In this document: piece after piece, positions 703 through 38,340 of the stretch | How the letters are laid out: every line of letters begins with the position of its first letter | How positions within the stretch are numbered: the stretch's first letter is position 1 | Virus record (IMG/VR): IMGVR_UViG_2706794690_000014 | Length of the DNA stretch: 39,909 nt | Reading direction: 5' to 3' (one strand) | DNA from: a virus | Lineage: Duplodnaviria > Heunggongvirae > Uroviricota > Caudoviricetes | Program-made: the position numbers and the translations under genes | Notes under the pieces: generated by a model | The model's database searches: none | Told to the model about the DNA's origin: nothing | Seen by the model: the letters and a program-made list of their open reading frames with translations, nothing else

Positions 703-862
703 TCATTTGATACCGACAAGGGGTTTAGTGAAAGGAGGTGAAATCACCTGTAAGATACTGAAATAAAACAGGTGATGGCTAGATGTGCGGATAAGGTCTA
801 TTTGATACCGATTGTGCAATAATTAGTCATTTATTATAAAATCGGCAACTCATTTGATACTG
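703..862. repeat. Left-end cluster of putative transposase-binding repeats (attL)
   Basis: Three direct copies seen in sequence: tcatttgataccg (703-715), ctatttgataccg (798-810), tcatttgatactg (850-862). The same motif occurs inverted at the right end. Confidence 0.6.
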
Positions 863-934
863 TGGTTTTAGTCTTTTAAGGCGTTCCAAACAATGCGAAA
901 TACTCGATATAGTGCAAAATGCGGGCTAATGCTA

Positions 935-1480
935 TTAACCCGCTTTTGGTTCTACCGCGTTAGATTTGCGACTTCTCTCAGTTTCTTCCAAAATCTCTCT
1001 GACGCGTTCGTCAGACATACCTTCAAGCTGTAATGCAGCTATTCTTTTCCTTCCTTCTAAGCGGATTAGATCTTGATTTTCAGGCTCTAACAACCGAGCT
1101 AAGTACTTGGCTCCATTCAGAACCAAATTTTTCGATAGCTGCTCTAAGTCTTTTTCATCAAGTGCGCTGATAATCGTCATAATTATCTTCTTGCTTTCAT
1201 CTTGATTTTCCTTGATCTCACACCGATTCACTTGTGATGCATCACTGAATCCACATAGCCACTCAACACTTACTCCTTCGATAGACGCAATCTGAAGGGC
1301 GACACTTAAGGATGGCTCAGTGCCACGAGACAGATAATTGTTTAGTGTTGAAAATGAAAGCCCCCAATCTCTTGCTGCAGCTCTGACGCTGCGGGAGCCA
1401 ATCAGCCTTTTCAGACGCTCAGCAATGCTTTCTTTTCTACCACCAGGAAAAGAAAGAGATGTTGTTGTTTGCTTGTTCAT
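935..1480 (-). CDS. Phage repressor (c-like), HTH DNA-binding protein
   Basis: 181-aa minus-strand ORF divergent from ner and the transposase operon; N-terminal region reads as a helix-turn-helix. Position matches the Mu c repressor. Confidence 0.6.
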   Translation of the reverse strand: MNKQTTTSLSFPGGRKESIAERLKRLIGSRSVRAAARDWGLSFSTLNNYLSRGTEPSLSVALQIASIEGVSVEWLCGFSDASQVNRCEIKENQDESKKIIMTIISALDEKDLEQLSKNLVLNGAKYLARLLEPENQDLIRLEGRKRIAALQLEGMSDERVREILEETERSRKSNAVEPKAG

Positions 1481-1534
1481 TTTCTTTTCTTCCTATCAAT
1501 TTGAAATTATTAACTTTTAGTGTTGTCAGCAACC

Positions 1535-1636
1535 ATTGATCCACAATAGACAAAAGAAAGATGTTTTTTTTGCTTTACATGAAGCAGAAGTGGATCAATA
1601 CTTATATCAAACTTGATAACTAAGTTTAGTTATCAA
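1535..1636. promoter_or_regulatory. Operator/divergent promoter region between repressor and ner
   Basis: Perfect 24-bp palindrome ttgataactaa-gt-ttagttatcaa (1613-1636) and a perfect 10-bp inverted repeat attgatccac/gtggatcaat (1535-1544 and 1590-1599), in the AT-rich gap between divergent genes. Confidence 0.45.
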
Positions 1637-1665
1637 ATTTCGTAACTTTTTAGGATAGATGAATC

Positions 1666-1896
1666 ATGGCGAGAAATGAAGTTAAGCCTGATTGGCATCC
1701 TCAAAGAATTTTGGGGGAAGTCAGAGCCAGAGAAGGAAGCATGAGGGCGCTGGCCCGTAAAGCTGGCGTGGGTCAGAACAATCTGTACAACGCGGTATAC
1801 CGCCATGTTCCCAAGTATGAGGGGATTATCGCGGAATGCCTGGGGGTGCCGCCCGAGGAGATTTGGCCCAGCCGCTACATTCGTAAGGTCGCGTAA
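1666..1896 (+). CDS. ner: Ner-like DNA-binding protein (Ner/Nlp family)
   Basis: 76-aa ORF immediately upstream of the transposase gene. Contains the conserved W-H and C-terminal IWPSRY motifs characteristic of Mu Ner. Confidence 0.85.
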   Translation: MARNEVKPDWHPQRILGEVRAREGSMRALARKAGVGQNNLYNAVYRHVPKYEGIIAECLGVPPEEIWPSRYIRKVA

Positions 1897-1898
1897 TT

Positions 1899-3986
1899 AT
1901 GTTTGCTTCAGTTAAAGAACTGGTTGGATTACCGGGGATGCCGGGAACGGAGCAAGGCGTTCGCTATTCAATCAGGAAGTATGCAACCAGCGAAACCAGC
2001 AGACGCCGCAAGAAAGGCGCTAAAGGTTTTGAATACAGCATTGACTGTTTACCTGAAGTGACACAGCAGGCATTACGCGAACGTTATGCCCTGCAACTGA
2101 TGACGCAAAAAGCCGATGAATCACCGGCTCCGGTGGTGACAAAGGCCAGACGCTCGTCTGCCGTGGTTGATGCGGTGGAGGCATATCGCGGATCACCACA
2201 ACTGATGGTCGAACGCCTCAATGCCCTGACTGAAAACCAGCGCCAGGTGGCAGACGCACGCATTGCGATCGTCAGTGAGGTGCTGAAATTCACGCAACAA
2301 CCCGGTTTCAGCTGCGCTAAAGCTATCCGGTTCCTCGTTAACAGCCTGGCACGATCACAACTGGACGAGCGCATTGTGGCAATGGTTGAGACGGCGAACG
2401 CCAAAAAGGGAAACAGCCGCGCGTTGAGTGAAATCACGCTGAAACGCTGGATTGCGGCCTTTAACAAGGCACAGAACGCCGCTGAACGCCTGCTTTTACT
2501 GGCACCGGGTAAACGCCAGGAAATAAAAGCCGAAGATATTAACTGGCTGCCCGAATTTCTGGCGCAGTATCGCCAGTCAAACGGCCGACCAATGACCGAG
2601 GCTTACGAGGATTTTGTTGCTGAATGGCAGCACCGGCACGCTGATGAGCCTTATATGCTCGATATCATGCCCTCTTATGACACCATTCGCCGCGCAATGA
2701 AGAAACTGCCGGAAGTGGTGAAACAAAAAGGCCGGGTAACTGGCAGTGAATACCGTCAGCTTGAGGGATTCACGCGCCGCGACTGGTCCAGAATGCCGGT
2801 GAATTATGTCTGGATTGGTGACGGTCACGGCATGAAGCTGAAATGCGCGCACCCGGTTCACGGGCGGCCATTCGCACCGGAAGTGACCTTTGTTATCGAC
2901 GGTGGCACGCGCTTTGTGGTGGGCTGGAGCCTTGACCTGGCTGAAAATGTTTTCGCCGTAGCCGGTGCCATACAGCACGGTATTCGCCATCATGGCAAAC
3001 CGTTTCTGTATTACTCGGATAATGGCTCCGGGGAAACCGCCGACGTCCTGGATAAGGAGATTGTGGGGATACTGCCACGACTGGGGATTAATCACCCGAC
3101 AGGGATTGCCGGTAATCCGCAGGGACGGGGCATTATCGAACGGCTTAACCGCACATTACCGATGCGCATAGCCCGTAAATACCGCACCTATTTCGGGAAA
3201 GGAGCAGATCGCGAGACGTTACGTAAAACCAACCGCGATTTACGCTCGGCATTCAGTGCCCTGCAACAGGGCAAACGGCTGAACGCCCGGCAGCAGTCAG
3301 CGATGCGTGATTTACCGTCCTGGTCTGAACTGATTGATGCCATTCGTGACGGTGTTGAGTGGTACAACAACCGGCCGCACGATGAATTACCCATGAAGCC
3401 GAACGGTAAACATTACAGCCCGGCGGAGTTCAGAAAAAAACGCCTGGCGGAAGAGGACACGGAAATTGAATGGCTGTCCGATGTTGAACTGCGGGATATG
3501 TTCCGGCCGATGGTGGAGCGCCCTGTAAGACGCTGTGAAATACGCTGGCTGAATAATATTTACTACGCGCCCGAGCTGCGTGACGAGCATGGCCGTAAGG
3601 TACTTATCAGCTATGACATTCATGATGCCGAACGAATTACCGTGCGCCGCCCGGATGGCAGCGTGATTTGCGAGGCGGTATGGGACGGCAATAAACGCGA
3701 AGCCTTCCCTGTCAGCGCGGAATACTACAAACAGCAGCAGCGCCTTAAAGGCATGCGTAAACGCGCAGAGGAAAAAATCCGTGATGCCGAGGATGAGGTT
3801 GTCAACGTGCTGGAGCACAAGCCGCAGGAGCCCTGGCTGGAAAACATATACCGCCCTGTGGGTAATACGGTGACCGTTCAGCAACCGGTCGCTGACGATG
3901 AACCTGATGAAGAATACGAGCGTAATTTCCAGCGGGGATTGCAACTGCTCGAAGCGAAATTAAAAGAAAGTGATCCGCTGGCCTGA
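1899..3986 (+). CDS. DDE transposase, MuA-like
   Basis: 695-aa ORF following ner, with an integrase-core-like region (VWIGDGHGMKL...). Size and position match Mu transposase A. Confidence 0.85.
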   Translation: MFASVKELVGLPGMPGTEQGVRYSIRKYATSETSRRRKKGAKGFEYSIDCLPEVTQQALRERYALQLMTQKADESPAPVVTKARRSSAVVDAVEAYRGSPQLMVERLNALTENQRQVADARIAIVSEVLKFTQQPGFSCAKAIRFLVNSLARSQLDERIVAMVETANAKKGNSRALSEITLKRWIAAFNKAQNAAERLLLLAPGKRQEIKAEDINWLPEFLAQYRQSNGRPMTEAYEDFVAEWQHRHADEPYMLDIMPSYDTIRRAMKKLPEVVKQKGRVTGSEYRQLEGFTRRDWSRMPVNYVWIGDGHGMKLKCAHPVHGRPFAPEVTFVIDGGTRFVVGWSLDLAENVFAVAGAIQHGIRHHGKPFLYYSDNGSGETADVLDKEIVGILPRLGINHPTGIAGNPQGRGIIERLNRTLPMRIARKYRTYFGKGADRETLRKTNRDLRSAFSALQQGKRLNARQQSAMRDLPSWSELIDAIRDGVEWYNNRPHDELPMKPNGKHYSPAEFRKKRLAEEDTEIEWLSDVELRDMFRPMVERPVRRCEIRWLNNIYYAPELRDEHGRKVLISYDIHDAERITVRRPDGSVICEAVWDGNKREAFPVSAEYYKQQQRLKGMRKRAEEKIRDAEDEVVNVLEHKPQEPWLENIYRPVGNTVTVQQPVADDEPDEEYERNFQRGLQLLEAKLKESDPLA

Positions 3987-4068
3987 AATAAAAAAATAAC
4001 CCGAGGGGTGACTCAGGTTATTTGAGGTTTCAGTCTCGGAGAATGCTGTCTCAAGCGAGGTGAATAAT

Positions 4069-5001
4069 ATGACCGATATTAACGATGTAATCAAGACCAT
4101 TGATGAACTTATTGATGGCGGCGTACTGACGCAGTATGCCATCGCCAGAGAGGCGGGAATTTCCGACGGCACATTATCGGCTTTCCGTAAGGGAAAATAT
4201 AAAGGCGATAACGCTGCTGTGGCTGCTTCCCTGCGCTCCTGGTATGAGAACTGGAATAAACAAAGCGCACTGCCGGAACCGCCGCAGTTTGTGGAAACTC
4301 AGACAGTCCAGGAGCTGCGCGCACTGTTTCAGGCGGTTCGCCTGATGGGCTGTATTAACGTTATTGTGGGCGTACCGGGTGTGGGTAAAACGGCCACTGC
4401 CCGTAATTACTGCCAGGAGCAACCAAACACCTGGATGATCACCCTGTCACCCGCGCACTCCAGCGTCACGGAGTGTCTGCTGGAGCTGGCCGATGCGCTG
4501 GGGATTGATTACACCCGCGCGAACAAAGGGGCATTATCCCGCGCCATCCGCCGTCGCCTGATGGGAACGCGTGGACTGGTGATTGTGGATGAGGCGGATC
4601 ATCTTGGTATTGACGGTCTGGAGCAACTCCGGGCAATTCAGGACGCCACGGGGATCGGGATGGTGCTTATTGGTAACCCGCGCGGATTGTTTAAAGGTGG
4701 ACGCCGCGCCTTTGATGATTTATCGCGCCTGTTCAGCCGTCTTGCCCGTACAAAACAACTTCGCAAGGCCAAAAAGGCGGATGTGCTGGCCATTGCCATG
4801 GCGTGGGGGATCAGTGGTGAGGCCGAGCTGGCCGTCATGCAGGCTATCGCTGAAAAGCCGGGAGCGTTACGCGTTCTGACACATACGCTTAACCAGGCGT
4901 GGCTCACCGCCAGCGGTGAAGGCGCGGCGCTGACAGAAAAACATATTAATGCGGCCTTTAAAGAGGTTTATACCAACCCTGAATTACTCTCACAGGTGTG
5001 A
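4069..5001 (+). CDS. Transposition ATPase, MuB-like (AAA+)
   Basis: Walker A motif GVPGVGKT; follows the transposase. ATG at 4069 with GAGG 8 nt upstream is preferred over the GTG at 4060. Confidence 0.8.
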   Translation: MTDINDVIKTIDELIDGGVLTQYAIAREAGISDGTLSAFRKGKYKGDNAAVAASLRSWYENWNKQSALPEPPQFVETQTVQELRALFQAVRLMGCINVIVGVPGVGKTATARNYCQEQPNTWMITLSPAHSSVTECLLELADALGIDYTRANKGALSRAIRRRLMGTRGLVIVDEADHLGIDGLEQLRAIQDATGIGMVLIGNPRGLFKGGRRAFDDLSRLFSRLARTKQLRKAKKADVLAIAMAWGISGEAELAVMQAIAEKPGALRVLTHTLNQAWLTASGEGAALTEKHINAAFKEVYTNPELLSQV

Positions 5002-5003
5002 TT

Positions 5004-5225
5004 ATGGCGGTATTTAATATTCCTGATATTTACGGACGCTTTTACCTGGTTAATTTCGATAACGTGAAGGTGATTTCACTGGCCGAAAATAAAGAATGTG
5101 GCGATTTACTTTTTGAATTTAATGACCGCACACGAATGGTGATATCTGCCGGACTTGATCGCGAAGGTGCGACAGAAGTTTACAGCGGAATATGCCGTTC
5201 TGTTGGTGCGAAACAAGTCAGCTAA
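5004..5225 (+). CDS. Hypothetical early protein
   Basis: ORF in the early accessory region; start abuts the MuB stop. No recognisable domain. Confidence 0.4.
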   Translation: MAVFNIPDIYGRFYLVNFDNVKVISLAENKECGDLLFEFNDRTRMVISAGLDREGATEVYSGICRSVGAKQVS

Positions 5226-5237
5226 ATGAGGTGTTAT

Positions 5238-5492
5238 ATGAATATGCAATCCTGCGGTAACAAAATGAATTTATTCGACTCCCTGAACAGCGCGCGCCGT
5301 CTGACCGAACTTGCCGGTGCGGTACTGGAACGCAGTAAGCGCTATCCGCAACGTTTTGCACTGAAAACCACGCCGCCGGTAGGCAACGTGCAGGGAACCG
5401 GTGAAATTGAAATCACCATACAGACCAACGGCCTGCGCCGCCGTGTGAAGGCCACCCGCATCAGCGGCTGCACGGTTTACTGGGAGGTGTGA
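5238..5492 (+). CDS. Hypothetical early protein
   Basis: ORF with GAGGTG upstream; start could be 5226, 5238 or 5244. Confidence 0.4.
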   Translation: MNMQSCGNKMNLFDSLNSARRLTELAGAVLERSKRYPQRFALKTTPPVGNVQGTGEIEITIQTNGLRRRVKATRISGCTVYWEV

Positions 5493-5493
5493 G

Positions 5494-5775
5494 GTGAAAA
5501 AAAATCTCATTGCATGGGCGTGGTCGAGTGGTCTTATTGAGTTTGGTTACGTCCTGCCGGAAGGTGCATTGCCGATAGTTGCCGGAAAGCCTGCCACGGT
5601 ACGGCATGTGATTGAGGTTATGGCGCGTCATGGACGTGATGAACAGGAGCAGTTACTGGTTCCGGGGATACCGGAAGCGGTGACGGAGGAAGAAGCCTTT
5701 AATGCCATGATTCGGTTCTGCCGTGAGGTTAGACGCCGGGTCAGTTATCCAAACAGAACGAGGACCAGAGGATGA
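5494..5775 (+). CDS. Hypothetical early protein
   Basis: GTG start with GGAGG 8 nt upstream; tightly packed with neighbours. Confidence 0.45.
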   Translation: MKKNLIAWAWSSGLIEFGYVLPEGALPIVAGKPATVRHVIEVMARHGRDEQEQLLVPGIPEAVTEEEAFNAMIRFCREVRRRVSYPNRTRTRG

Positions 5776-6044
5776 GTAAAGTCGTACGCATTATTTTCGA
5801 ATACAAGGAAGATGTTATCTGCAAAAACTCTGATGGCAGCACGCACAGAGGGGTAAGTCTGGATATACGTTCAACCGGAATAAAGAAGAAAGATAATGGA
5901 CCCGCCATGATTTTTGGGGTGGTTATGCTGGCAGAAAGCAGAAACTTCGCAGAGTTTGTGGCAATGAAAGCCAGTGCATTCATGAAAGACAGAGGCATGG
6001 CTTCCGGGGTTATTAACGGTAATGAATTTAATCAACAGGGGTAA
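5772..6044 (+). CDS. Hypothetical early protein (paralog 1 of a tandem pair)
   Basis: Begins MSKVVRIIFEY; N-terminus resembles the next ORF (MSKVRVIFEF). Confidence 0.5.
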   Translation: MSKVVRIIFEYKEDVICKNSDGSTHRGVSLDIRSTGIKKKDNGPAMIFGVVMLAESRNFAEFVAMKASAFMKDRGMASGVINGNEFNQQG

Positions 6045-6048
6045 TTCC

Positions 6049-6342
6049 ATGAGCAAAGTACGCGTTATTTTTGAATTTAATCATGTTTCGCATGACGAAA
6101 AGTTGGCAGGCAATGACTGTGTTGAAGTGCATGAAAAGATTGGAGTGGATGTGAAAACAGAACGTGATACGGATAACAGGCCGACGTCACTCTGTGACGT
6201 TTATGCAAGTATTCTCCAGTATCACAGTCCTGCAATTATTCAGTTTCTCTCAGCGGAATTTCAGGCATCTGCACAGTCTTTTGGAGCGGATGCCATCATT
6301 AAACGCCACCGCGTGCATAAAGCATCAGGCACACTGCAATAA
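6049..6342 (+). CDS. Hypothetical early protein (paralog 2 of a tandem pair)
   Basis: ATG at 6049 gives MSKVRVIFEFNH; similar N-terminus to the upstream ORF at both DNA and protein level. Confidence 0.5.
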   Translation: MSKVRVIFEFNHVSHDEKLAGNDCVEVHEKIGVDVKTERDTDNRPTSLCDVYASILQYHSPAIIQFLSAEFQASAQSFGADAIIKRHRVHKASGTLQ

Positions 6343-6353
6343 GGAAAAACAAA

Positions 6354-6884
6354 ATGGCTAAACGCGTTACAAAATTAAAGGCCGCAGCCGAGGCGGCACC
6401 GCAGACCCGGGAAGAAGTCAGCCGTGATATCCGCACCCTGGGAGATATTCAGCGAGAGGCGCTGCGCCTGGAAACGGCGATGAATGACGAAGTGGCAGAA
6501 ATCACCGCCCGTTATACGCCGCAGATTGAAAATCTTAAAAAGCAAATCAAAGTGCTTTTTAAAGGGATTCAGGACTGGTGCAAAACCAACCGTGATGAGC
6601 TGACGAACGGCGGCAAAACCAAAACAGCCAATCTGACCACCGGAACGGTGTCATGGCGGCTGGGAACGCCATCATGCAGCGTCAGCCGTGATGTGGAAGG
6701 TGTGATTGAAATGCTGCGCCGTATGGGGCTTGAGCGTTTCATCCGCACGAAAGAGGAAGTGAACAAGGAAGCCGTCCTGGCGGAGCCGGATGCTGTGAAA
6801 GGCATTGCCGGTATCAAGGTGAATAAAGGCGCTGAAAGTTTTTATGTCGAGCCTTTTGAACAGGACGCCGGACTGAATAAATAA
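6354..6884 (+). CDS. gam: Host-nuclease inhibitor Gam (Mu Gam family)
   Basis: 176-aa ORF with conserved Gam stretches (RLETAMNDEVAEIT, DELTNGGKTKTANL, RFIRTKEEVNKEA, EPFEQ); position matches Mu. Confidence 0.8.
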   Translation: MAKRVTKLKAAAEAAPQTREEVSRDIRTLGDIQREALRLETAMNDEVAEITARYTPQIENLKKQIKVLFKGIQDWCKTNRDELTNGGKTKTANLTTGTVSWRLGTPSCSVSRDVEGVIEMLRRMGLERFIRTKEEVNKEAVLAEPDAVKGIAGIKVNKGAESFYVEPFEQDAGLNK

Positions 6885-7029
6885 CACCGCATTAATCAAT
6901 TAAATATCACTTCATTTTAATTATGGCGCTCGCGTCAGGGGACTGCTTGCGCCTGAAAACAGAAAATAAGGGTTAAGAAATATGAAATACGTTTATATCG
7001 TCATTAATAATGTGGTGGGGAAATAAATC

Positions 7030-7563
7030 ATGATTGATGCAAAAGTGCTTGAAGGGGTTAAAAACTGGCTGTGTATTTATGGCCGCCTGACCTGCGGTGT
7101 ACTGGCTGAAAAAATGAATATGCCGCCATCCTCCATGGTTTATTTTCTGCGTGATGCGGTTGATGCAGGCGTGCTGACGGAATGTAACGGTTTTTATGAT
7201 ATTCCGCGTCCCCGCCCGGTGCAGCCGGTTCGTCGCAAATGCAGCCAGGAATCTGCGGCTGATGATGTTCAGTGGTGCGGCTTCAGAAAATCCCTGCCAT
7301 GGATTGAGGGGCATGATATTCCGTCGATGGCGTGGGAATTTGCTCAGGGCGTTCTGACCTGTGAAACCGTTTATGTGGTGGCTGAAGTTGATGAGCAGGC
7401 CATGAAAGAAGGCGTGCCCCAGTTTGTGATGGCGTATATCGACATACGCCTGGGCGTCATTATCTGCGGTTTAAGCGGCTGGAATATCACTGAACATGTT
7501 CTGCGCTACCTGATTGTTGACCGGACAGCAGCGCCTGCCGGGATATCTGCGGAGGTGGCGTAA
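7030..7563 (+). CDS. Hypothetical early protein, possible winged-helix N-terminus
   Basis: 177-aa ORF; N-terminal ~60 aa resemble a winged HTH. Function unknown. Confidence 0.45.
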   Translation: MIDAKVLEGVKNWLCIYGRLTCGVLAEKMNMPPSSMVYFLRDAVDAGVLTECNGFYDIPRPRPVQPVRRKCSQESAADDVQWCGFRKSLPWIEGHDIPSMAWEFAQGVLTCETVYVVAEVDEQAMKEGVPQFVMAYIDIRLGVIICGLSGWNITEHVLRYLIVDRTAAPAGISAEVA

Positions 7564-8078
7564 TGTTCTTTAAAACATCAAACCCTTCCGCGCTGGCTGC
7601 GTGGCAAAAATACCAGCAGGACTGCCAGAAAGTTAAGGATGAGGCAAAACGCCTTGAGGCCGTGCTGAATGTTGCGTGCCGGTCGGTATTTGTATCCGGT
7701 ATCAGTGGATTTTACTTTAAGGGACTGCGTTTTACGGAGGACAAATATCCTTTTCATCGCGACTTATGGCGAAAACCGACTGCGTCGAATGGCTGGAGCT
7801 GCACACCGCGCACATCACGTATCCCTAAAACCCTGCGTGTTGCCTCTGATGAACTGAACAGTCTGTGGCGTGAATATTCGCCCGTCACGTATGCCAGAAC
7901 CGATGCGCTGTTGTTCTGGTTGGGTATTGATTTCTCGGCAATCCTGTTTGGCCCTGTGAAGTGGTTCTGCGTTGACGATGTGATTTACCTTCAGTGCGGC
8001 GTAAAACCCGCAAAACAGAAAATGACCGAAATACTGTCTGATGAGTTTTATGCTGCTGAAAAGCGAGTCAGGGGGTGA
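7563..8078 (+). CDS. Hypothetical early protein
   Basis: 171-aa ORF translationally coupled to the upstream gene (TAATG overlap). Confidence 0.45.
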   Translation: MFFKTSNPSALAAWQKYQQDCQKVKDEAKRLEAVLNVACRSVFVSGISGFYFKGLRFTEDKYPFHRDLWRKPTASNGWSCTPRTSRIPKTLRVASDELNSLWREYSPVTYARTDALLFWLGIDFSAILFGPVKWFCVDDVIYLQCGVKPAKQKMTEILSDEFYAAEKRVRG

Positions 8079-8081
8079 TGC

Positions 8082-8633
8082 ATGATGAAATTACAACCCA
8101 TGGGACTAAAAGGTCGCGCCCCCGCTCATGTCCGTCCGTGGACACCTGAAGAAGATGCGCTGCTGATTGCGCTTTATTCATCCACCCCGGTTAAGGATAT
8201 TGCTGCCAGAATAAAAAGAACTGTCTGGGCTGTATATAACCGGACTGGTGTATTGCGCAGTTCATACCCGGAGTTACTGAAATATAAACACCCAAGATTT
8301 ACACCTGATGAAGATAAGTTTATTCGAAAAAATGCCAGAACAATGACCTGCCAGCAAATGGGAGAATATCTCGGACGTAATAAAGATTCTGTCAGATGTC
8401 GGGCAGGAATGATTGGTGCTGGATTAACAAAGTGCGGAGAGTTACGCCCCGGCACGCGCATATCTGATGATGATGTACGTCTTATACGTGAGCTGCGTGA
8501 TTCCGATTACCCACGCCGTCTGTCATTCCGGGAAATTGGCGAAAAGTTTGGAATATCTGAACATTCTGCTCACGCAGTTTATTACCGTCGCCGGACTGCC
8601 GAGGACGCTGTATTACGGGAGTTAACGCCATGA
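8082..8633 (+). CDS. Putative DNA-binding protein with two Myb/SANT-like repeats
   Basis: Two repeats with the W/F-TP-EED signature (RPWTPEEDALLIALY and RFTPDEDKFIRKN), plus a C-terminal HTH-like segment (LSFREIGEKFGIS). Confidence 0.45.
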   Translation: MMKLQPMGLKGRAPAHVRPWTPEEDALLIALYSSTPVKDIAARIKRTVWAVYNRTGVLRSSYPELLKYKHPRFTPDEDKFIRKNARTMTCQQMGEYLGRNKDSVRCRAGMIGAGLTKCGELRPGTRISDDDVRLIRELRDSDYPRRLSFREIGEKFGISEHSAHAVYYRRRTAEDAVLRELTP

Positions 8634-8962
8634 TAACGACCTTATTTGTTGAATCAGATGAACCTCTTGTGTGTGCCGCCGGAATGCCGCTCTGTGGCGG
8701 AACGCTGACCGGCGTTTATTTCGGGGATTTGCGCGGTTATCCCTGGCATTCACTGGATGACGCATTTCCGCCTGATATGGAGGCTGTCGTGCTGATTGTT
8801 CAGTATGGTGACCAACAGGAACTGCGCATCGGCCATATGGGGTATGAAGGCTTTTTTATTGATGAAGAAACCGGAGCCTGCCTTGAAGATGAGGACGGAC
8901 AGGTGACGCACTGGTGCCATCTTTCGGCCTTGCCGGAATTACAGGGGATACATAATGGATGA
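8630..8962 (+). CDS. Hypothetical early protein
   Basis: 110-aa acidic ORF, coupled to the upstream gene by ATGA overlap. Confidence 0.4.
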   Translation: MITTLFVESDEPLVCAAGMPLCGGTLTGVYFGDLRGYPWHSLDDAFPPDMEAVVLIVQYGDQQELRIGHMGYEGFFIDEETGACLEDEDGQVTHWCHLSALPELQGIHNG

Positions 8963-9098
8963 GCAAATTGTTGAATGTCCCACCTGTGGAAATGAGGACC
9001 CGGAGTATCTGAAAGAGTGCCCACATTGTGGTGAGATAAAATGTAACCACTGCGATATGGGCGACGACACTGCATGTATAAATTGTGAGGATGAATAA
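8955..9098 (+). CDS. Small Cys-rich zinc-ribbon protein (47 aa)
   Basis: MDEQIVECPTCGNEDPEYLKECPHCGEIKCNHCDMGDDTACINCEDE: four Cys pairs. Below the ORF-track size cut-off; found by reading the gap. Confidence 0.4.
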   Translation: MDEQIVECPTCGNEDPEYLKECPHCGEIKCNHCDMGDDTACINCEDE

Positions 9099-9099
9099 T

Positions 9100-9387
9100 A
9101 TGGAAAAAGAAATCAAATTTGCGCCTAAATCTATCGACGAAGAACTGGCTAAAATCGGCATGCTTGAACGTATGCGGGACATTATCGAATATGCGATAAA
9201 AGAAAATCTTGCAGCCAGAGAAGCCCTTTTGATAATGGAGCGGGAGATTAACCTGATTAAGGATGCTGTATCTCTGGATAATAAAATAGCCCGCGAGGAA
9301 TACGTTCGCCGTAGGCTCGGTGTTGATGGTTCAGCAATTCTTACATCTGAACATTATGCAAAAATTTTTAATCTTTTTCAGCGGTAA
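9100..9387 (+). CDS. Hypothetical early protein
   Basis: ATG at 9100 with GAGGA 8 nt upstream (MEKEIKF...); predicted helical. Confidence 0.45.
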   Translation: MEKEIKFAPKSIDEELAKIGMLERMRDIIEYAIKENLAAREALLIMEREINLIKDAVSLDNKIAREEYVRRRLGVDGSAILTSEHYAKIFNLFQR

Positions 9388-9607
9388 TCCCCATACAGGC
9401 CCGGAGATTGTCGAAATGCCAGTCGGTATTAATATATGAGCCATCCTGGATATCTTCTGCATTTTCCGGGGTAGAGTTTTTTTGAGCGAGATTGATAATA
9501 TGTATTGCCTCCTCACGGGAAATCAGCCCCTTATCGAACAGGGTTACCATAAGATTTCCAGCCATTGTGAATGCGGCAACATCAAGTGCATTTTTTATAT
9601 CTGACAT
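9368..9607 (-). CDS. Hypothetical protein, reverse-oriented within the early region
   Basis: 79-aa minus-strand ORF with balanced composition and an AAGGA RBS 8 nt before its ATG; overlaps the 3' end of the 9100-9387 gene convergently. Confidence 0.45.
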   Translation of the reverse strand: MSDIKNALDVAAFTMAGNLMVTLFDKGLISREEAIHIINLAQKNSTPENAEDIQDGSYINTDWHFDNLRACMGITAEKD

Positions 9608-9635
9608 AGATTTTTCCTTTTATGTTAATTGACAT

Positions 9636-9664
9636 GGCGGTGCGGTAACACCGCCCATTTTTTA
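9636..9664 (+). terminator. Rho-independent terminator-like hairpin
   Basis: Stem ggcggtg/caccgcc with loop cggtaa, followed by a T6 run (9658-9663); lies just upstream of gemA. Confidence 0.5.
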
Positions 9665-9677
9665 TGGAGCCACGATA

Positions 9678-10190
9678 ATGAATCGCGCTTCCCTGATTAC
9701 CTTAATACATGTCGCAAAACGCGATCTACAGCTTGACCATGATACCTATACATCCGCGCTGCTGGCAGCCACCGGCAAATCCAGTTGCCGTGATATGTCA
9801 CCCGGTGAGTTATCCCGCGTGCTGGATGTTTTCAAAAAACGCGGTTTTAAAGTGCGTCAGAAGCCGGTTAACCGGGCCTTAAAACCGGGTACGGTGACCG
9901 CCAAAATTCGCGCCATCTGGAAAGTGATGCACCGGCAGGGATTTATCTCTGATGGCGGGGAAACGGCCCTTAACCGCTGGGTGAAATCGCAGACGGCCGC
10001 GCAGAACGACGGCGAAGGTGTGGCTAACTGGCAGTGGCTGGAGCAACAACCCGCGCTGGCCTCTGATGTGCTGGAGCGTCTCAAACGCTGGCACCGCCGC
10101 AAAATGCTGGCAGCCCTGGATATGTCGGAACGTGCAGTGATGAGTTATGAGCGTGTTTGCAGGCTGTATGAAAAATCATTCCCCCGTTAA
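9678..10190 (+). CDS. gemA: GemA-like regulatory protein (Mu gp16 family)
   Basis: 170-aa ORF with a LI.LIHVAKR..L.LD..TY N-terminus and RAIW motif typical of Mu gp16; located immediately before the Mor/C gene. Confidence 0.7.
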   Translation: MNRASLITLIHVAKRDLQLDHDTYTSALLAATGKSSCRDMSPGELSRVLDVFKKRGFKVRQKPVNRALKPGTVTAKIRAIWKVMHRQGFISDGGETALNRWVKSQTAAQNDGEGVANWQWLEQQPALASDVLERLKRWHRRKMLAALDMSERAVMSYERVCRLYEKSFPR

Positions 10191-10194
10191 CCCC

Positions 10195-10225
10195 AAATCC
10201 CGCCACAGCGCGGGATTTTTATTTT
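10195..10225 (+). terminator. Rho-independent terminator
   Basis: 9-bp stem aaatcccgc/gcgggattt with a 6-nt loop, followed by ttattttt; directly after the gemA stop. Confidence 0.6.
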
Positions 10226-10260
10226 AAACTTGCCCTGTGTAATGATGACCGGAGGCGGGT

Positions 10261-10683
10261 ATGGCTGAAACACAGATGAGCATGTTTGGTGACAGCGAAC
10301 AGCTGCACGCGCTGATTGACCGTCTGGATGATATTCCTGATGATGAGCTGAAAAAGAACTGGCCCGGCACGCTGCGGGACCTGGTTGATGTGATCAGTGC
10401 TGAACTGCACCGTCAGGGGATTGAACCTGCTCAGGCGGGAATGCTTGCCCGTAAGGTTGCAGCCGCACAGGCCGGGTACATGGGCGGGCGTGGTTATTAT
10501 CTCCCGGTCGGTGAATCCCTTTTCACCGAACTGCGCAATAATGAAATTTTTTCCCGCTGGAGCCAGGGCGAAAAAATTGAAACCCTGCGCCGCCACTACC
10601 AGATGTCAGAGACGCAGATTTACTCCGTTATCCGCAACCAGCGTCGCCTGCATCAGGAACGCACGCAGCCACGGCTTTTCTGA
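10261..10683 (+). CDS. Mor/C-family late transcription activator
   Basis: 140 aa with a C-terminal HTH (MSETQIYSVIRNQRR); sits between gemA and the lysis genes as Mor/C do in Mu. Cannot tell Mor from C. Confidence 0.7.
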   Translation: MAETQMSMFGDSEQLHALIDRLDDIPDDELKKNWPGTLRDLVDVISAELHRQGIEPAQAGMLARKVAAAQAGYMGGRGYYLPVGESLFTELRNNEIFSRWSQGEKIETLRRHYQMSETQIYSVIRNQRRLHQERTQPRLF

Positions 10684-10754
10684 TATTCCGCAAATCCTGC
10701 CCCCTTTTCCTCACGGTTACGCTGACTCAGAGAACACCATGAGACAGCGTAACA

Positions 10755-11255
10755 ATGCCAAAACTCCCCGCACCCCTGCGTAAAAAGCTGATTGCCCTTG
10801 TTCTGGCCGGAGCCGGGACGTTCACCATTGCCACGCACTACACCGGCTACTGGGAAGGGAAAGAAAACACCACGTACATTGATCCCACCGGCACCCCCAC
10901 CATCTGTTACGGCCATACCGGCCCGGATGTGAAACCGGGGATGACAAAAACTGATGAAGAGTGTCTGGAGCTGCTGGAAAAGGACATGAAATGGGCCTTT
11001 GCGGCTATCGATCGTCATGTTCAGGTGCCGCTTACCCGTGGTCAGACGGTGGCGCTGGCCTCCTGGATTTTCTGGGCCGGTGAAACGAACTTTCGCAACT
11101 CCACGCTCCTGCGCCTTATCAATGCCGGGCAGATGCCCGCGTCCTGTAAGCAGTATATCCGCTGGATTTATTCAAAGGGGGTAAAACTCCCCGGTCTTGA
11201 GGCCCGCCGTTCGGCGGATGAATGGTTATGTCGTTACGATTTGCCGAAAGTCTGA
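10755..11255 (+). CDS. lys: Endolysin (phage lysozyme) with N-terminal SAR-type signal anchor
   Basis: Catalytic E-x8-D-x5-T pattern (WEGKENTTYIDPTGTPTICYGHT); weakly hydrophobic Gly/Ala-rich N-terminus (LIALVLAGAGTFTIATHY). Confidence 0.8.
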   Translation: MPKLPAPLRKKLIALVLAGAGTFTIATHYTGYWEGKENTTYIDPTGTPTICYGHTGPDVKPGMTKTDEECLELLEKDMKWAFAAIDRHVQVPLTRGQTVALASWIFWAGETNFRNSTLLRLINAGQMPASCKQYIRWIYSKGVKLPGLEARRSADEWLCRYDLPKV

Positions 11256-25152: not shown

Positions 25153-27249
25153 ATGGCAAAAAACCTGAAAGCCTCCCTGATTGTCGATTTACTCGGCAAT
25201 ATTTCTGCCAAATCCCGCCAGTGGTCACAGGAGCTGGGGGCATTCTCCCGTTCCGGCAGGACGGGGCTGGGTGGTCTTGGAAATGCAGCACGTCGTGCCG
25301 GTCAGGAGACAGAACTTGTCGGCTCCCGTATGCAGCGAACGCTTGCCGGTGTTCGTGGCAGTATCCGCACGGTGACGTCAGATTTTGACCGCCTTCAGGG
25401 CAGCATTNNNNNNNNNNNNNNNNNNNNNNNNNNNNNNNNNNNNNNNNNNNNNNNNNNNNNNNNNNNNNNNNNNNNNNNNNNNNNNNNNNNNNNNNNNNNN
25501 NNNNNNNNNNNNNNNNNNNNNNNNNNNNNNNNNNNNNNNNNNNNNNNNNNNNNNNNNNNNNNNNNNNNNNNNNNNNNNNNNNNNNNNNNNNNNNNNNNNN
25601 NNNNNNNNNNNNNNNNNNNNNNNNNNNNNNNNNNNNNNNNNNNNNNNNNNNNNNNNNNNNNNNNNNNNNNNNNNNNNNNNNNNNNNNGCGGGTTCGGTAT
25701 GAGTGACAGGGAAGCCCGTCGCTTTATTACCATGCTTCAGGATCAGGGCGGCTATCACGGCTGGTCACTGTCAGATGCACAGGGTGCGTCCCTGCAACTC
25801 AAACAGATGTTTGCCCGCCAGAGTATCCAGGCAGCGGACGCCAATATTCTGACCGGATACGGGATTAACGTTTACCAGTTGCTGGCCGATAAGCTGGGTG
25901 TAAACCAGAAGATCATCCGTGAGAAAGGCGAGAAAGGAAAACTGGGACCGGACAGCATTCGCCTGTTATTTCAGGTGATGGCCGAACAGGCAAAAGGTGC
26001 CCAGAAAAACGCCATGAATTCCTGGACGGGAATGACGTCCATGATGGGCGATGTCTGGGACGGATTTGCCCGCGAGGTGATGGCAAAGGGACCGTTTGAC
26101 AGCCTGAAAAAGAGCCTGAAAGGCTTTCTGGATTATGCTGATGCGGCACAGAAAAGCGGCTTACAGGATAAGCTGGCCACACAGACGGCCTCAGCCCTGA
26201 ATCAGGGATTTGAGTATGCCAGAGACGCTGCGACCGGCTTTTACCGGGTCATTCAGAAAGTCAGGGAAACGCTTCAGGCACTGCGCGACGCCGGTTATGG
26301 CGATGCGCTGGATCGCATTGGTCAGGGTGCGCAGACCGCCGCAAAGTACCTGATGTATATGTATCTCGCCTCCCGTGCGCTGAAGGTGCTCAGGTTTGCG
26401 GGGACGGGGGCATTACGTCTCGGCGCAACCCCCTTACGCTATGGCATGGCGATGACCTCCGTGCTGACGTCGCCCTTCCGCAAACCGCAGACCACTGTAC
26501 CGGGAACGCAGCCCGGACGCGCTGGCCGGTTCCTGAATTTCCTTACCGGGGTAAATCCGGCTGCCGTTCAGCCCGTGCTGGTCACCAATTGGCCTGCGGG
26601 TGGCCTGGCCTCAGGTGGCGGGGATGTGGTGGTCAGCGGTGACGGCAAAACCGTGCGCGGCCGTAAAAAACGCGGCCCCGGACGTGGACGGGGTGTCACG
26701 ACCGTCGTGACTGCCGGTGAGCAACTGGCGGAGAGTGCCGGTAAACAGGGCTTCTTCGGTCGTATGATGAGCCGTGCCGGTGGTCTGCTAACGGCGGCCG
26801 GAAACCGCATGGGGCTGGGGCGTTTTGCCGGGCTGTTCCGTGGTGCCGGTCGGCTGGGTGGTGGTGCCCTGTGGGCCGGTGCCATGGCGGCTCCTGTACT
26901 GCTGGACAGCAGCGCCAGTGCAGCCGATAAAGCCGGTGCCGTGGGTTCCCTTGCCGGAAGTATCGCCGGTGGCGCGCTGGGGGCGGCTGCCGGTCCGGTC
27001 GGGGTTGCCATTGGTTCCACGGTGGGCAGCTATCTCGGTGATTATCTGGGGGGCTGGCTGACGCAGGCCTGGCAGAAACTGCGTGGCGGCAGTGACGAAA
27101 ACGGCGGACAGGCCACCGCGAAAACCGCCGCACGGGTGGAGCTTGTTGCCCCTGAAGGCTGGCGGGCGCGCAGTATTGATGTGGATGATACCGCACAGCA
27201 TGGCCTGGATGTGAACGTCTGGAACGGAGGGAACTATGGCCTCTACTGA
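25153..27249 (+). CDS. Tail tape measure protein (interrupted by an assembly gap)
   Basis: 698-codon ORF after the chaperone; Gly/Ala-rich C-terminal region. Contains 280 N at 25408-25687. Confidence 0.75.
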   Translation: MAKNLKASLIVDLLGNISAKSRQWSQELGAFSRSGRTGLGGLGNAARRAGQETELVGSRMQRTLAGVRGSIRTVTSDFDRLQGSIXXXXXXXXXXXXXXXXXXXXXXXXXXXXXXXXXXXXXXXXXXXXXXXXXXXXXXXXXXXXXXXXXXXXXXXXXXXXXXXXXXXXXXXXXXXXXXGFGMSDREARRFITMLQDQGGYHGWSLSDAQGASLQLKQMFARQSIQAADANILTGYGINVYQLLADKLGVNQKIIREKGEKGKLGPDSIRLLFQVMAEQAKGAQKNAMNSWTGMTSMMGDVWDGFAREVMAKGPFDSLKKSLKGFLDYADAAQKSGLQDKLATQTASALNQGFEYARDAATGFYRVIQKVRETLQALRDAGYGDALDRIGQGAQTAAKYLMYMYLASRALKVLRFAGTGALRLGATPLRYGMAMTSVLTSPFRKPQTTVPGTQPGRAGRFLNFLTGVNPAAVQPVLVTNWPAGGLASGGGDVVVSGDGKTVRGRKKRGPGRGRGVTTVVTAGEQLAESAGKQGFFGRMMSRAGGLLTAAGNRMGLGRFAGLFRGAGRLGGGALWAGAMAAPVLLDSSASAADKAGAVGSLAGSIAGGALGAAAGPVGVAIGSTVGSYLGDYLGGWLTQAWQKLRGGSDENGGQATAKTAARVELVAPEGWRARSIDVDDTAQHGLDVNVWNGGNYGLY
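25408..25687. other. Assembly gap (280 N)
   Basis: Uninterrupted run of n characters. Confidence 0.99.
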
Positions 27250-34293: not shown

Positions 34294-34866
34294 ATGCTGA
34301 TTGGGTATATCAGGGTGTCAACAAATGACCAGAATACGGCGCTACAAAGAAATGCGCTGGAATGTGCAGGATGTGAGCTGTTTTTCGAAGACAGAATAAG
34401 CGGTAAGACAAGGGAGCGTCCCGGACTTAAACGCGCATTAAAGCGACTCCGGCCAGGGGATACCCTGCTGGTCTGGAAACTGGATCGCCTTGGACGCAGT
34501 ATGCAGCACCTTGTCCTTTTAACAGAAGAACTCCGGCAACGCGGCGTTAACTTCCGCAGCATTACGGACAATATTGATACATCCACTCCCATGGGACGTT
34601 TCTTTTTCCATATAATGGGCGCGCTGGCGGAAATGGAGCGGGAACTCATTATTGAACGTACACGCGCGGGTCTTGCTGCTGCCCGTGCTCAGGGGCGTCA
34701 TGGCGGCAGACCTCAGAAACTGACAGAGAAAGAGCGGGAGCAAATCGCCCGTTTGCTGGCTAATGGCGAGTCCCGTAAACAAATCGCACTGATATTTGAT
34801 ATTGGCCTTTCCACCCTTTATCGTTATTTTCCTGCCTCACCAGCTCCGTCACCAAAAGTACCGTGA
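34294..34866 (+). CDS. gin: Serine DNA invertase (Gin/Hin/Pin family)
   Basis: N-terminal catalytic region MLIGYIRVSTNDQ and C-terminal HTH (GESRKQIALIFDIGLSTLYRYF), both typical of serine invertases. Confidence 0.9.
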   Translation: MLIGYIRVSTNDQNTALQRNALECAGCELFFEDRISGKTRERPGLKRALKRLRPGDTLLVWKLDRLGRSMQHLVLLTEELRQRGVNFRSITDNIDTSTPMGRFFFHIMGALAEMERELIIERTRAGLAAARAQGRHGGRPQKLTEKEREQIARLLANGESRKQIALIFDIGLSTLYRYFPASPAPSPKVP

Positions 34867-38297: not shown

Positions 38298-38340
38298 GAG
38301 TGATAAAGATATCAACAACAAAGCAGGAGGTTATGCGGCC

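What the first reader, a model, noticed from the sequence alone, without database searches (positions are those of the whole stretch)
7030..9387. Block of six uncharacterised early genes between gam and gemA
Six tightly coupled ORFs with no recognisable core phage function occupy the variable accessory part of the early operon. Such positions in transposable phages commonly hold host-takeover or anti-defence genes; I cannot assign any by eye.
Basis: inference. Interest (0 to 1): 0.5.

Follow-up and report, generated by a model that had tools for sequence, protein, structure and literature searches.

The report
Mu-type accessory early gene block
The six genes are real and belong to the known but functionally unstudied "semi-essential early" region of a Mu-like E. 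coli prophage: four are counterparts of phage Mu genes 11-14, two are an inserted pair, and nothing links any of them to a known defence or counter-defence system.

Summary
Six + strand ORFs fill 7030-9387 between gam (6354-6884) and gemA (9678-10190). Each has an ATG and a Shine-Dalgarno site, junctions are -8 to +3 nt, and dN/dS is 0.13-0.26.

The window is a Mu-like prophage, 100% identical to E. coli strain 600029 over the 3.8-kb gam-gemA stretch searched.
- o1, o2, o5 and o6 are homologues of Mu gp11 (68%), gp12 (55%), gp13 (88%) and gp14 (48%).
- o3 and o4 are absent from Mu and sit between the gp12 and gp13 homologues.

Recognisable parts:
- o1: winged-helix N-terminus plus Gp11_C.
- o3: tandem Myb-like repeats plus a third HTH.
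- o5: eight-cysteine zinc ribbon.
- o2, o4 and o6 match nothing of known function.

PADLOC, NCBIfam and PDB sequence searches gave nothing else.

The interval is mosaic: 36 gene orders in 69 related loci. My best reading is dispensable early accessory proteins, partly DNA-binding, that modulate host or phage DNA transactions. That function is inferred. The anti-defence idea is neither supported nor excluded.

Both also occur in Mu, where gp15 on the + strand may be a shadow ORF.

Interest is low to moderate.

The parts
6354..6884 (+). gam (left boundary; Mu Gam-type DNA-end-binding protein)
   Evidence: Pfam Phage_Mu_Gam 5.5e-42. 57% identical to Mu Gam.
6885..7029 (.). 145-bp spacer: deletion scar of an extra gene (cluster c4) that relatives carry between gam and the gp11 homologue
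   Evidence: Relatives L004 and L005 have a 540-580-bp gene here; PGAP names it 'DUF5420 family protein' in L004 and 'hypothetical protein' in L005. The window keeps homology to the left flank and, against L005, to the first ~18 nt of that gene (up to 6999), and again from 7022 onward. A 14-codon stub remains at 6982-7026. Cluster c4 is present in 36 of 70 loci.
7030..7563 (+). o1: Mu gp11 homologue, with a winged-helix N-terminal domain, a low-confidence linker and a Gp11_C beta domain
7563..8078 (+). o2: Mu gp12 homologue, fold not matched to anything characterised
8082..8633 (+). o3: DNA-binding protein with two Myb/SANT-like repeats plus a third HTH; not present in Mu
   Evidence: No hit in Mu. 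phrog_323, 'transcriptional regulator', 5e-53. A family profile hits c-Myb R2R3 at 6.9e-7 over residues 18-106. RefSeq name is 'SANT/Myb-like DNA-binding domain-containing protein'. The word-indexed homologue search found 27 clusters; every one that a source names is E. coli or Salmonella. A 37% homologue sits in the early operon of a P2-like Citrobacter phage. Against L002 the allele is diverged: dS 0.68 versus about 0.2 in the neighbouring genes. 28 of 50 amino-acid differences lie in the three predicted recognition helices.
8630..8962 (+). o4: small, strongly acidic protein (pI 4.05; 19 D+E against 2 K+R) from a very small family; not present in Mu
   Evidence: No hit in Mu. phrog_6925 2e-51. 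Only 16 representatives among 1.84 billion proteins. The DUF551 match is below threshold: 14.6 bits against a cut-off of 22, with 3 of 7 family members matching weakly. No PDB sequence match. Occurs only together with o3 (12 of 12 gene orders).
8955..9098 (+). o5: Mu gp13 homologue, a 47-aa acidic mini-protein with four CxxC pairs (a double zinc ribbon)
   Evidence: 88% identical to the C-terminal 41 aa of Mu gp13. phrog_5584 3e-26. The same module forms the C-terminus of the longer phrog_6418 and cluster c22 proteins. Zinc-ribbon Pfam hits are below threshold. 8 Cys, pI 4.05. Third-position fraction is 0.73, the highest of the six. PGAP does not annotate it.
9100..9387 (+). o6: Mu gp14 homologue (95 aa from ATG 9100; alternative GTG start at 9085)
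   Evidence: 48% identical to Mu gp14. phrog_6075 6e-44, aligned from residue 6. SD GAGGA at 9087. PGAP uses this start. No PDB sequence match.
9368..9607 (-).
   Evidence: PGAP calls it WP_001280088. phrog_32893 1e-44. ATG with SD AAGGA. Homologous minus-strand ORFs sit at the same place in Mu (7896-8162, phrog_8747 7e-60) and in other loci, sharing a ~35-aa N-terminal motif. PGAP calls the minus-strand gene in the E. coli W Mu prophage.
9636..9655 (+). Conserved hairpin GGCGGTG-N6-CACCGCC about 23 nt upstream of the gemA ATG; here followed by a T-run, so terminator-like
   Evidence: Terminator scan. The exact stem lies just upstream of gemA in every distinct variant inspected, among 32 of 90 fetched loci including Mu (8193-8212), while flanks and loop vary. 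0 chance matches in 100 shuffles of the window.
9678..10190 (+). gemA (right boundary)
   Evidence: Pfam GemA 1.8e-28. 46% identical to Mu GemA.

Best explanation

Six small genes lie on the early-operon strand, downstream of the ner, A, B and gam homologues. They are packed for translational coupling. By analogy with Mu they would be silent in the lysogen and made within minutes of induction or infection.

Four are homologues of Mu gp11, gp12, gp13 and gp14, in the same order. Two, a Myb-type DNA-binding protein and a small acidic protein, sit as a pair between the gp12 and gp13 homologues.

The most likely mode of action is as dispensable accessory factors that act on DNA or on host proteins to tune lytic development:
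- o1 (winged helix) and o3 (tandem Myb repeats plus a third HTH) would bind DNA, either as regulators or as nucleoid-associated factors.
- o5 (double zinc ribbon), o4 (acidic), o2 and o6 would be small binders or adaptors.

None of them is a replication, packaging, lysis or morphogenesis protein.

Shown: gene reality, homology and gene order, the fold or family class of o1, o3 and o5, and mosaic distribution.
Inferred: co-transcription with the early operon, DNA binding itself, dispensability, and any effect on the host.
For: Gene reality and coupling.

Homology to Mu gp11-14, and absence of o3 and o4 from Mu.

Operon context:
- The ner-like, MuA and MuB genes and five small ORFs all lie upstream on the same strand.
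- The terminator scan found only weak + strand candidates inside the operon, and no more candidates than in shuffled sequence. The first candidate with a G+C-rich stem and a clear T-run is at 9636-9655.

DNA-binding folds:
- o3: profile E 6.9e-7 to c-Myb R2R3, with homologues carrying PF00249, PF13921 and PF04545.
- o3 allele differences concentrate in the predicted recognition helices.

Accessory nature:
- 36 gene orders in 69 loci. By locus, o2 is in 50 of 70, o3 in 36, and o4, o5 and o6 in 24-28.
- An o3 homologue sits in the variable early region of a P2-like phage.

Literature: the Mu SEE region is described as poorly conserved small genes of uncharacterised function. The classical phenotypes (kil, gam, sot, arm, cim, gem) concern replication, immunity, regulation and host killing (PMC8705779; PMC4553209).
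Against: - No experiment or characterised homologue supports any activity for o2, o4, o5 or o6.
- The o1 model is of low confidence overall (pLDDT 55). Only its N-terminal domain gives a clear fold match.
- The window's own o3 scores below the Pfam Myb gathering threshold (19.7 against 24.4 bits).
- The conserved hairpin at 9636-9655 and the minus-strand gene show that transcription at the end of the block is more complex than one simple operon.
- The loci were recruited through o1, so its universal presence is by construction. The sample is almost entirely Enterobacteriaceae.
Confidence: 0.55

Rival explanations
1. Counter-defence island. One or more of the small proteins, especially the acidic o4 (pI 4.05) and the acidic zinc-ribbon o5, inhibit host immunity such as restriction enzymes, RecBCD-linked or other nucleases. 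They could act as DNA mimics or direct inhibitors, expressed early to protect incoming or replicating Mu DNA.
For: - The position is in a variable early region next to gam, which is itself a nuclease inhibitor.
- Gene content shows mosaic turnover.
- o4 and o5 are small and strongly acidic.
- The o4 family is tiny and patchy, with 16 representatives.
Against: - No Pfam, PHROG or NCBIfam hit points to a named anti-restriction or anti-defence family.
- o5 is among the best-conserved genes of the block (88% to Mu gp13). All six are under ordinary purifying selection, dN/dS 0.13-0.26, with no sign of arms-race diversification.
- The phage already carries Mom at its right end.
- No dedicated anti-defence profile set was available, so this is absence of evidence only.
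Confidence: 0.2
2. Phage-internal regulators. The DNA-binding members (o1, o3) act on the phage's own genome, for example on transposition ends, the enhancer, or early and middle promoters. They would correspond to classical Mu SEE phenotypes such as arm (amplified replication) or cim (control of immunity), rather than acting on the host.
For: - o1 and o3 have DNA-binding folds.
- o1 and o2 are the most persistent members next to gam.
- SEE phenotypes tied to replication, immunity and regulation are recorded for Mu (PMC4553209).
- o3 occurs as diverged alleles differing in the predicted recognition helices, as specificity-determining regulators often do.
Against: - o3 is absent from Mu and from about half of the related loci.
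- No repeated candidate operator was looked for or found.
- The arm and cim phenotypes could not be mapped onto gp11-14 from the papers available here.
Confidence: 0.2
3. Prophage-encoded defence or superinfection-exclusion genes that are expressed in the lysogen.
For: Prophage accessory regions often carry such genes. The minus-strand gene at 9368-9607 has the orientation expected of a lysogen-expressed moron.
Against: - PADLOC gives no hit for any of the seven proteins.
- The six genes lie on the early-operon strand with no intergenic space for promoters. The promoter scan finds no more sites than in shuffled sequence.
- No membrane or nuclease domain was detected.
Confidence: 0.04
4. Some of the ORFs, particularly the 47-aa o5, are chance or shadow ORFs rather than genes.
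For: PGAP does not annotate o5 in the identical genome.
Against: - o5 has the highest third-position substitution fraction of the six (0.73).
- It is 88% identical to Mu gp13.
- It has its own PHROG family (3e-26), an SD site and an ATG.
- All six ORFs have dN/dS of 0.26 or lower.
Confidence: 0.01

Closest known systems
Phage Mu semi-essential early (SEE) region genes gp11-gp14 (Mu_11 to Mu_14, formerly E10-E15)
   Same: Same position between gam and gemA, same strand and same order. Sequence homology is 68%, 55%, 88% and 48% for gp11, gp12, gp13 and gp14. The Mu genes are also annotated as hypothetical proteins. The minus-strand ORF and the hairpin before gemA occur in Mu too.
   Different: The window has two extra genes (o3, o4) between the gp12 and gp13 homologues. 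Its gp13 homologue lacks Mu's N-terminal 19 residues. Its minus-strand gene belongs to a different PHROG (32893 against 8747). The phage has one Mor/C-family gene directly followed by lysozyme instead of Mu's mor - middle region - C layout.
Lambda exo-xis region (ea22, ea8.5, orf60a-orf73): small early accessory genes
   Same: A run of small, early-transcribed, dispensable genes of unclear function in a temperate coliphage. They are mosaic between relatives and include zinc-binding and helix-turn-helix mini-proteins and acidic portable domains such as DUF551 (PMC10834534).
   Different: No significant sequence homology. o4 matches DUF551 only below threshold and does not resemble the Ea22-like neighbour of the o3 homologue in a P2-like phage. 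The phage type and replication mode differ.
T4 MotB: dispensable early DNA-binding protein that improves phage fitness
   Same: A functional analogy for o1 and o3: a non-essential early gene in a dispensable region that encodes a DNA-binding protein (PMC6070864 abstract).
   Different: No homology was tested or expected. T4 is a virulent phage. DNA binding by o1 and o3 is only predicted.
c-Myb R2R3 / SANT-Myb tandem-repeat DNA-binding domains
   Same: The o3 family profile aligns over two consecutive repeats (residues 18-106) with c-Myb R2R3 at E 6.9e-7. Homologues carry PF00249 and PF13921.
   Different: The window protein itself is below Pfam's gathering score. It carries a third, AsnC/sigma-70-region-4-like HTH. 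It is a stand-alone 183-aa phage protein. Similar repeat modules are found within or next to genes annotated as HNH endonuclease or DNA methylase in mycobacteriophages.
Anti-CRISPR/aca loci of Pseudomonas Mu-like phages (JBD30, DMS3 group); recalled from general knowledge, not tested here
   Same: Variable small genes in transposable phages, accompanied by an HTH protein.
   Different: As I recall, those loci lie in the late (head) region and have their own promoter. No sequence similarity was detected with any library used here. Nothing in this block was shown to be anti-defence.

Membership tests
Mu SEE-region genes gp11-gp14 | Located between gam and gemA on the early-operon strand of a transposable phage | tested here: met
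   gam at 6354-6884 and gemA at 9678-10190 flank the block. The ner-like, MuA and MuB genes lie upstream on the same strand.
Mu SEE-region genes gp11-gp14 | Sequence homology to Mu gp11, gp12, gp13 and gp14 | tested here: met
   tblastn gives o1 68% (5e-73), o2 55% (8e-62), o5 88% (1e-21) and o6 48% (1e-27). Gp11_C scores 139 bits against a cut-off of 27. This is met for four of the six genes; o3 and o4 have no Mu counterpart.
Mu SEE-region genes gp11-gp14 | Dispensable ('semi-essential') for phage growth | not testable with these tools
   Indirect only: o2 to o6 are each missing from many related loci.
Winged-helix DNA-binding domain (MarR/ArsR-like), o1 N-terminus | Three-helix bundle plus beta wing that superposes on solved wHTH domains | tested here: met
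Myb/SANT DNA-binding repeats, o3 | Profile-level match across tandem repeats to solved Myb domains | tested here: met
   E 6.9e-7 to c-Myb R2R3, residues 18-106.
Myb/SANT DNA-binding repeats, o3 | Pfam PF00249 or PF13921 at the gathering threshold for the window protein itself | tested here: not met
   19.7 bits against 24.4, and 16.5 against 22.9. Several homologues do carry these domains in precomputed tables.
DUF551, o4 | Pfam PF04448 at the gathering threshold | tested here: not met
   14.6 bits against a cut-off of 22. Three of 7 family members match weakly, best E 0.025. Any relation is at best distant.
Zinc ribbon, o5 | Paired CxxC motifs able to bind zinc, conserved among homologues | tested here: inconclusive
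   Four CxxC pairs (8 Cys in 47 aa) are conserved in Mu gp13 and in cluster c22 proteins. Pfam zinc-ribbon hits are all below threshold. Metal binding was not tested.
Known anti-phage defence systems (PADLOC-DB v2) | Match to any defence-system protein model | tested here: not met
   0 families for all six proteins and for the minus-strand protein at E <= 0.1.
Known anti-defence proteins (anti-restriction, Acr, anti-CBASS/Thoeris and similar) | Homology to a characterised inhibitor | tested here: inconclusive
   No hit in Pfam, PHROGs or NCBIfam points to such a family. No dedicated anti-defence profile library was available, and many inhibitors have no detectable homologues.

The most novel reading that the evidence does not exclude
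The gam-gemA interval of enterobacterial Mu-like phages could be a counter-defence or host-takeover island. The acidic mini-proteins (o4, and the zinc-ribbon o5 = gp13) would be direct inhibitors of host nucleases or immune sensors. The allelic Myb-type protein o3 would redirect host transcription.

Separately, the conserved minus-strand gene plus the invariant-stem hairpin in front of gemA could form a lysogen-expressed regulatory module. It is mis-annotated in the Mu reference genome, where gp15 on the + strand would be its shadow ORF.
Probability: 0.15. Interest if true: 0.6.

Novelty: new member of a known kind. Interest (0 to 1): 0.27.

Why it matters
Mu is a model phage, yet its SEE genes gp11-gp15 still have no assigned function. 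I found no functional data on them in the paper library.

This locus adds three things:
- gp11, gp12, gp13 and gp14 homologues persist across E. coli and Salmonella Mu-like prophages, in a nested, left-anchored pattern.
- Other genes are swapped in and out around them.
- At least two members are predicted DNA binders.

That gives concrete starting points: ChIP for the gp11 and o3 proteins, partner searches for gp13 and o4, and re-annotation of the Mu gp15 region. None of it changes current understanding. The block is an ordinary representative of a known, poorly understood class.

Tried and rejected
1. PADLOC gave no hit. NCBIfam gave no significant hit: only two matches far below their cut-offs (12.3 against 42.9 bits; 14.6 against 300 bits).

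2. PDB sequence and profile searches gave nothing significant for o1, o2, o4, o5 or o6. The macrophage-migration-factor hits for the o1 profile, at E about 0.4-1, are noise.

3. AF2 models of o1 and o2 came out at low to moderate confidence, pLDDT 55 and 67.
- The Gp11_C domain of o1 could not be searched on its own.
- The afdb50 library was unavailable.

4. A scan of species-representative genomes with the gp11 profile found only one locus, in Citrobacter braakii. Diversity therefore came from IMG/VR and E. coli genomes and is taxonomically narrow.

5. The first ORF-clustering pass chose the longest ORFs on either strand and picked shadow ORFs. I redid it with + strand priority.

6. The codon-position test cannot decide between the minus-strand gene (9368-9607) and the + strand ORF 9492-9632, because the two frames share their wobble positions. 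The decision rests instead on ORF length, RBS, PHROG membership, the PGAP calls and motif conservation.

7. I tested the idea that o4 matches the Ea22-like gene next to the o3 homologue in a P2-like phage. There is no similarity.

8. Literature searches for Mu gp11-14 functions, accession numbers, Pfam ids and toxicity or takeover screens found no functional data.

9. The enrichment of o3 allele differences in recognition helices used segments that I chose after seeing the alignment. Its p-value is therefore optimistic.
Full report
**What the window is.** The 3.8-kb stretch from gam to gemA (6354-10190) is 100% identical to the chromosome of E. coli strain 600029, a human stool isolate from Bangladesh. 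Related sequence is found in 232 of 5,426 complete E. coli genomes. Among phage records, 6300-10300 matches best, at about 91%, the 'inserted Mu-like phage' regions of two Stx-converting phage records. The left part of the window has the Mu layout:
- an HTH repressor on the minus strand (935-1480);
- a Ner-like gene (1666-1896);
- MuA (1899-3986) and MuB (4060-5001);
- five small ORFs with no family match;
- gam (6354-6884), the block in question, and gemA (9678-10190);
- one Mor/C-family gene (10261-10683);
- lysozyme (10755-11255).

**The observation.** All six + strand ORFs exist at the stated coordinates.
- Each has an ATG preceded by a G-rich Shine-Dalgarno site. Successive genes are separated by -1, +3, -4, -8 and +1 nt.
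- In comparisons with diverged homologous loci, 52-73% of substitutions fall on third codon positions.
- dN/dS against locus L002 is 0.13-0.26 for every gene.

These are genes under purifying selection, not chance ORFs. The sixth gene most likely starts at ATG 9100 rather than GTG 9085. PGAP leaves the 47-aa fifth gene unannotated in the identical genome, although it has the highest third-position fraction of the six.

**Identity of the six genes.** Comparison with the annotated Mu genome by tblastn gives:

| Gene | Mu counterpart | Identity |
|---|---|---|
| o1 | gp11 | 68% |
| o2 | gp12 | 55% |
| o3 | none | - |
| o4 | none | - |
| o5 | gp13 | 88% over its 41 C-terminal residues |
| o6 | gp14 | 48% |

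- The block is therefore Mu's gp11-gp14 run with a two-gene insertion between gp12 and gp13.
- All six fall into PHROG families. Five are of 'unknown function'; o3 is in phrog_323, 'transcriptional regulator'.
- o1 carries Pfam Gp11_C well above threshold.
- o2 homologues carry PF26885, and recent PGAP runs name them 'Mu-Gp12 family protein'.
- PADLOC gave nothing and NCBIfam nothing significant.

**What can be said about each protein.**
- **o3.** It belongs to a small family: 27 clusters in the word-indexed search, and every cluster that a source names is E. coli or Salmonella.
  - Its profile aligns over two consecutive repeats with c-Myb R2R3 (E 6.9e-7). A third HTH lies at residues 128-178.
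  - Related repeat modules lie within or next to genes annotated as HNH endonuclease or DNA methylase in mycobacteriophages. A full-length 37% homologue sits in the variable early (cox to A) region of a P2-like Citrobacter phage.
- **o4.** 110 aa, pI 4.05, with only 16 representatives among 1.84 billion proteins. It has a sub-threshold DUF551 match and no PDB match.
- **o5.** An acidic 47-aa protein with four CxxC pairs. The same module is fused to the C-terminus of longer proteins in other loci.
- **o6.** No informative match.

**Comparison across relatives.** Using gp11 as bait I collected 80 IMG/VR loci, one Citrobacter braakii locus and several annotated E. coli loci.
- In the 70 loci that hold both gam and gemA, the interval between them ranges from 1.1 to 5.2 kb.
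- After ORF clustering there are 36 different gene orders in 69 loci.
- Presence is nested and left-anchored. The gp12 homologue always directly follows the gp11 homologue (25/25 orders). o3 always directly follows gp12 (17/17). o4 occurs only with o3 (12/12). The gp13 homologue occurs only with gp12 (12/12).
- Other small genes replace or join them. These include a 102-124-aa protein (c2), membrane mini-proteins (c8, c14), a cluster (c4) between gam and gp11 that PGAP names DUF5420 in one locus, and others. All that have a PHROG are of unknown function.
- The window's 145-bp gam-o1 spacer is a deletion scar of that c4-type gene.
- Between the window and L002, o3 is far more diverged (73% aa identity, dS 0.68) than its neighbours (90-96% aa, dS 0.14-0.21), while dN/dS stays ordinary at 0.24. 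This fits allelic replacement by recombination.
- 28 of the 50 o3 differences fall in the three predicted recognition helices. I chose those segments after seeing the alignment. The pattern would fit different DNA specificities.

**Transcription context.**
- The terminator scan over 800-6400 and 6300-10800 gave only weak + strand candidates inside the operon, and no more candidates than in shuffled sequence. The first candidate with a G+C-rich stem and a clear T-run is the hairpin GGCGGTGCGGTAACACCGCC followed by CATTTTTTAT at 9636-9655, about 23 nt before the gemA start.
- A second terminator-like hairpin lies at 10195-10218, between gemA and the Mor/C gene.
- The block is therefore most simply read as part of the early operon. 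That is an inference from layout and from what is established for Mu.

**Beyond the finding's coordinates.**
- The interval contains a seventh gene on the minus strand (9368-9607, 79 aa). It has an ATG with SD AAGGA, a PGAP call and phrog_32893 at 1e-44. It converges on o6 with a 20-nt overlap and diverges from gemA across a 70-bp gap that contains the hairpin.
- Mu has a homologous minus-strand ORF (7896-8162, 88 aa, phrog_8747 at 7e-60). It overlaps the annotated + strand gp15 (Mu_54), which matches no PHROG.
- The minus frame is recognisable at 54% identity over 86 aa in diverged loci. By tblastn, gp15(+) is found only in loci at least 96% identical. A + strand ORF that clusters with gp15 is nevertheless also open in some of those diverged loci.
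- All variants share an N-terminal motif of about 35 aa. PGAP calls the minus-strand gene in the E. coli W Mu prophage.
- The codon-position test cannot separate the two frames because they share wobble positions. This conclusion therefore rests on the other lines of evidence.
- The exact hairpin stem is present in 32 of the 90 fetched loci, including Mu. It lies just upstream of gemA in every distinct variant inspected, with variable loop and flanks.

**Interpretation.** The literature available here describes the Mu SEE region as a long, poorly conserved stretch of small genes of uncharacterised function (PMC8705779). [quoted passage not shown] I found no functional data for gp11-gp14.

The best-supported reading is that the six genes are dispensable early accessory proteins. 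Two are predicted DNA binders (o1, o3). The rest are probably small binding proteins that tune host or phage DNA transactions during lytic growth. This is comparable in kind to the lambda exo-xis genes (PMC10834534) or T4 MotB (PMC6070864).

It has no positive support. No profile matches, the genes evolve under ordinary purifying selection, and the phage carries Mom at its right end.

**Verdict.** The block is a new arrangement of a known, functionally dark module rather than a new kind of system. Interest is low to moderate. The most useful by-products are the fold assignments for gp11 and o3, the nested conservation pattern, and the minus-strand gene and hairpin upstream of gemA, which also bear on the annotation of Mu itself.

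Noticed in passing
window 9368-9607 (-); Mu AF083977 7896-8162 (-): A conserved minus-strand small gene lies between the gp14 homologue and gemA. In Mu it overlaps the annotated + strand gp15 (Mu_54), which has no PHROG and, by tblastn, is found only in near-identical loci. gp15 may be a shadow ORF. The variants share an N-terminal motif of about 35 aa and have divergent C-termini.
   Followed up: partly
window 9636-9655 (and Mu 8193-8212; 32 of 90 fetched loci): A hairpin with an invariant stem, GGCGGTG-N6-CACCGCC, sits about 23 nt upstream of the gemA start. It lies in the 70-bp gap between the divergent minus-strand gene and gemA. In the window a T-run follows it, so it looks like a terminator; in Mu no T-run follows. 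Its function is unknown.
   Followed up: partly
window 10195-10218: A second terminator-like hairpin lies between gemA and the Mor/C-family gene. gemA is therefore bracketed by two + strand hairpins.
   Followed up: no
window 10261-11255: There is only one Mor/C-family activator. It is closer to Mu C (40%) than to Mor (28%), and lysozyme follows it directly. There is no Mu-type middle region. The same layout has been reported for Mannheimia Mu-like phages (PMC4553209).
   Followed up: partly
window 6885-7029: The spacer between gam and the gp11 homologue is a deletion scar. Relatives carry a gene of about 180-190 aa here (cluster c4, named DUF5420 by PGAP in one locus; present in 36 of 70 loci). 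The window keeps only its first few codons, within a 14-codon stub ORF at 6982-7026.
   Followed up: yes
window 8082-8633 vs L002 10304-10855: o3 occurs as two diverged alleles: 73% aa identity and dS 0.68 inside prophages whose neighbouring genes have dS of about 0.2. The differences concentrate in the predicted recognition helices of its three HTH units.
   Followed up: partly
window 34952-37006: A 684-aa ORF with a SASA carbohydrate-esterase domain plus DUF6645 lies between the Gin-type invertase (34294-34866) and Mom (38300-39232). It may be a surface-polysaccharide-modifying cargo gene or a tail-associated gene.
   Followed up: no
window about 25,400-25,700: A run of masked bases (N) inside the long ORF 25153-27249, presumably the tape-measure gene judging by its size and position (it was not scanned). 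This explains the apparent G+C dip at 25-26 kb.
   Followed up: yes
window 4998-6342: Five more small + strand ORFs lie between MuB and gam (75-106 aa). None has a Pfam match and they have little or no similarity to Mu gp5-gp9. This proximal half of the SEE region is equally uncharacterised.
   Followed up: no
L089 (Citrobacter phage Shae_phiSM) 3501-4052: A full-length o3 homologue (37%) lies in the variable early cox-to-A region of a P2-like phage, next to an Ea22-like gene. The same accessory DNA-binding gene is thus found in the early regions of unrelated temperate phage types.
   Followed up: partly
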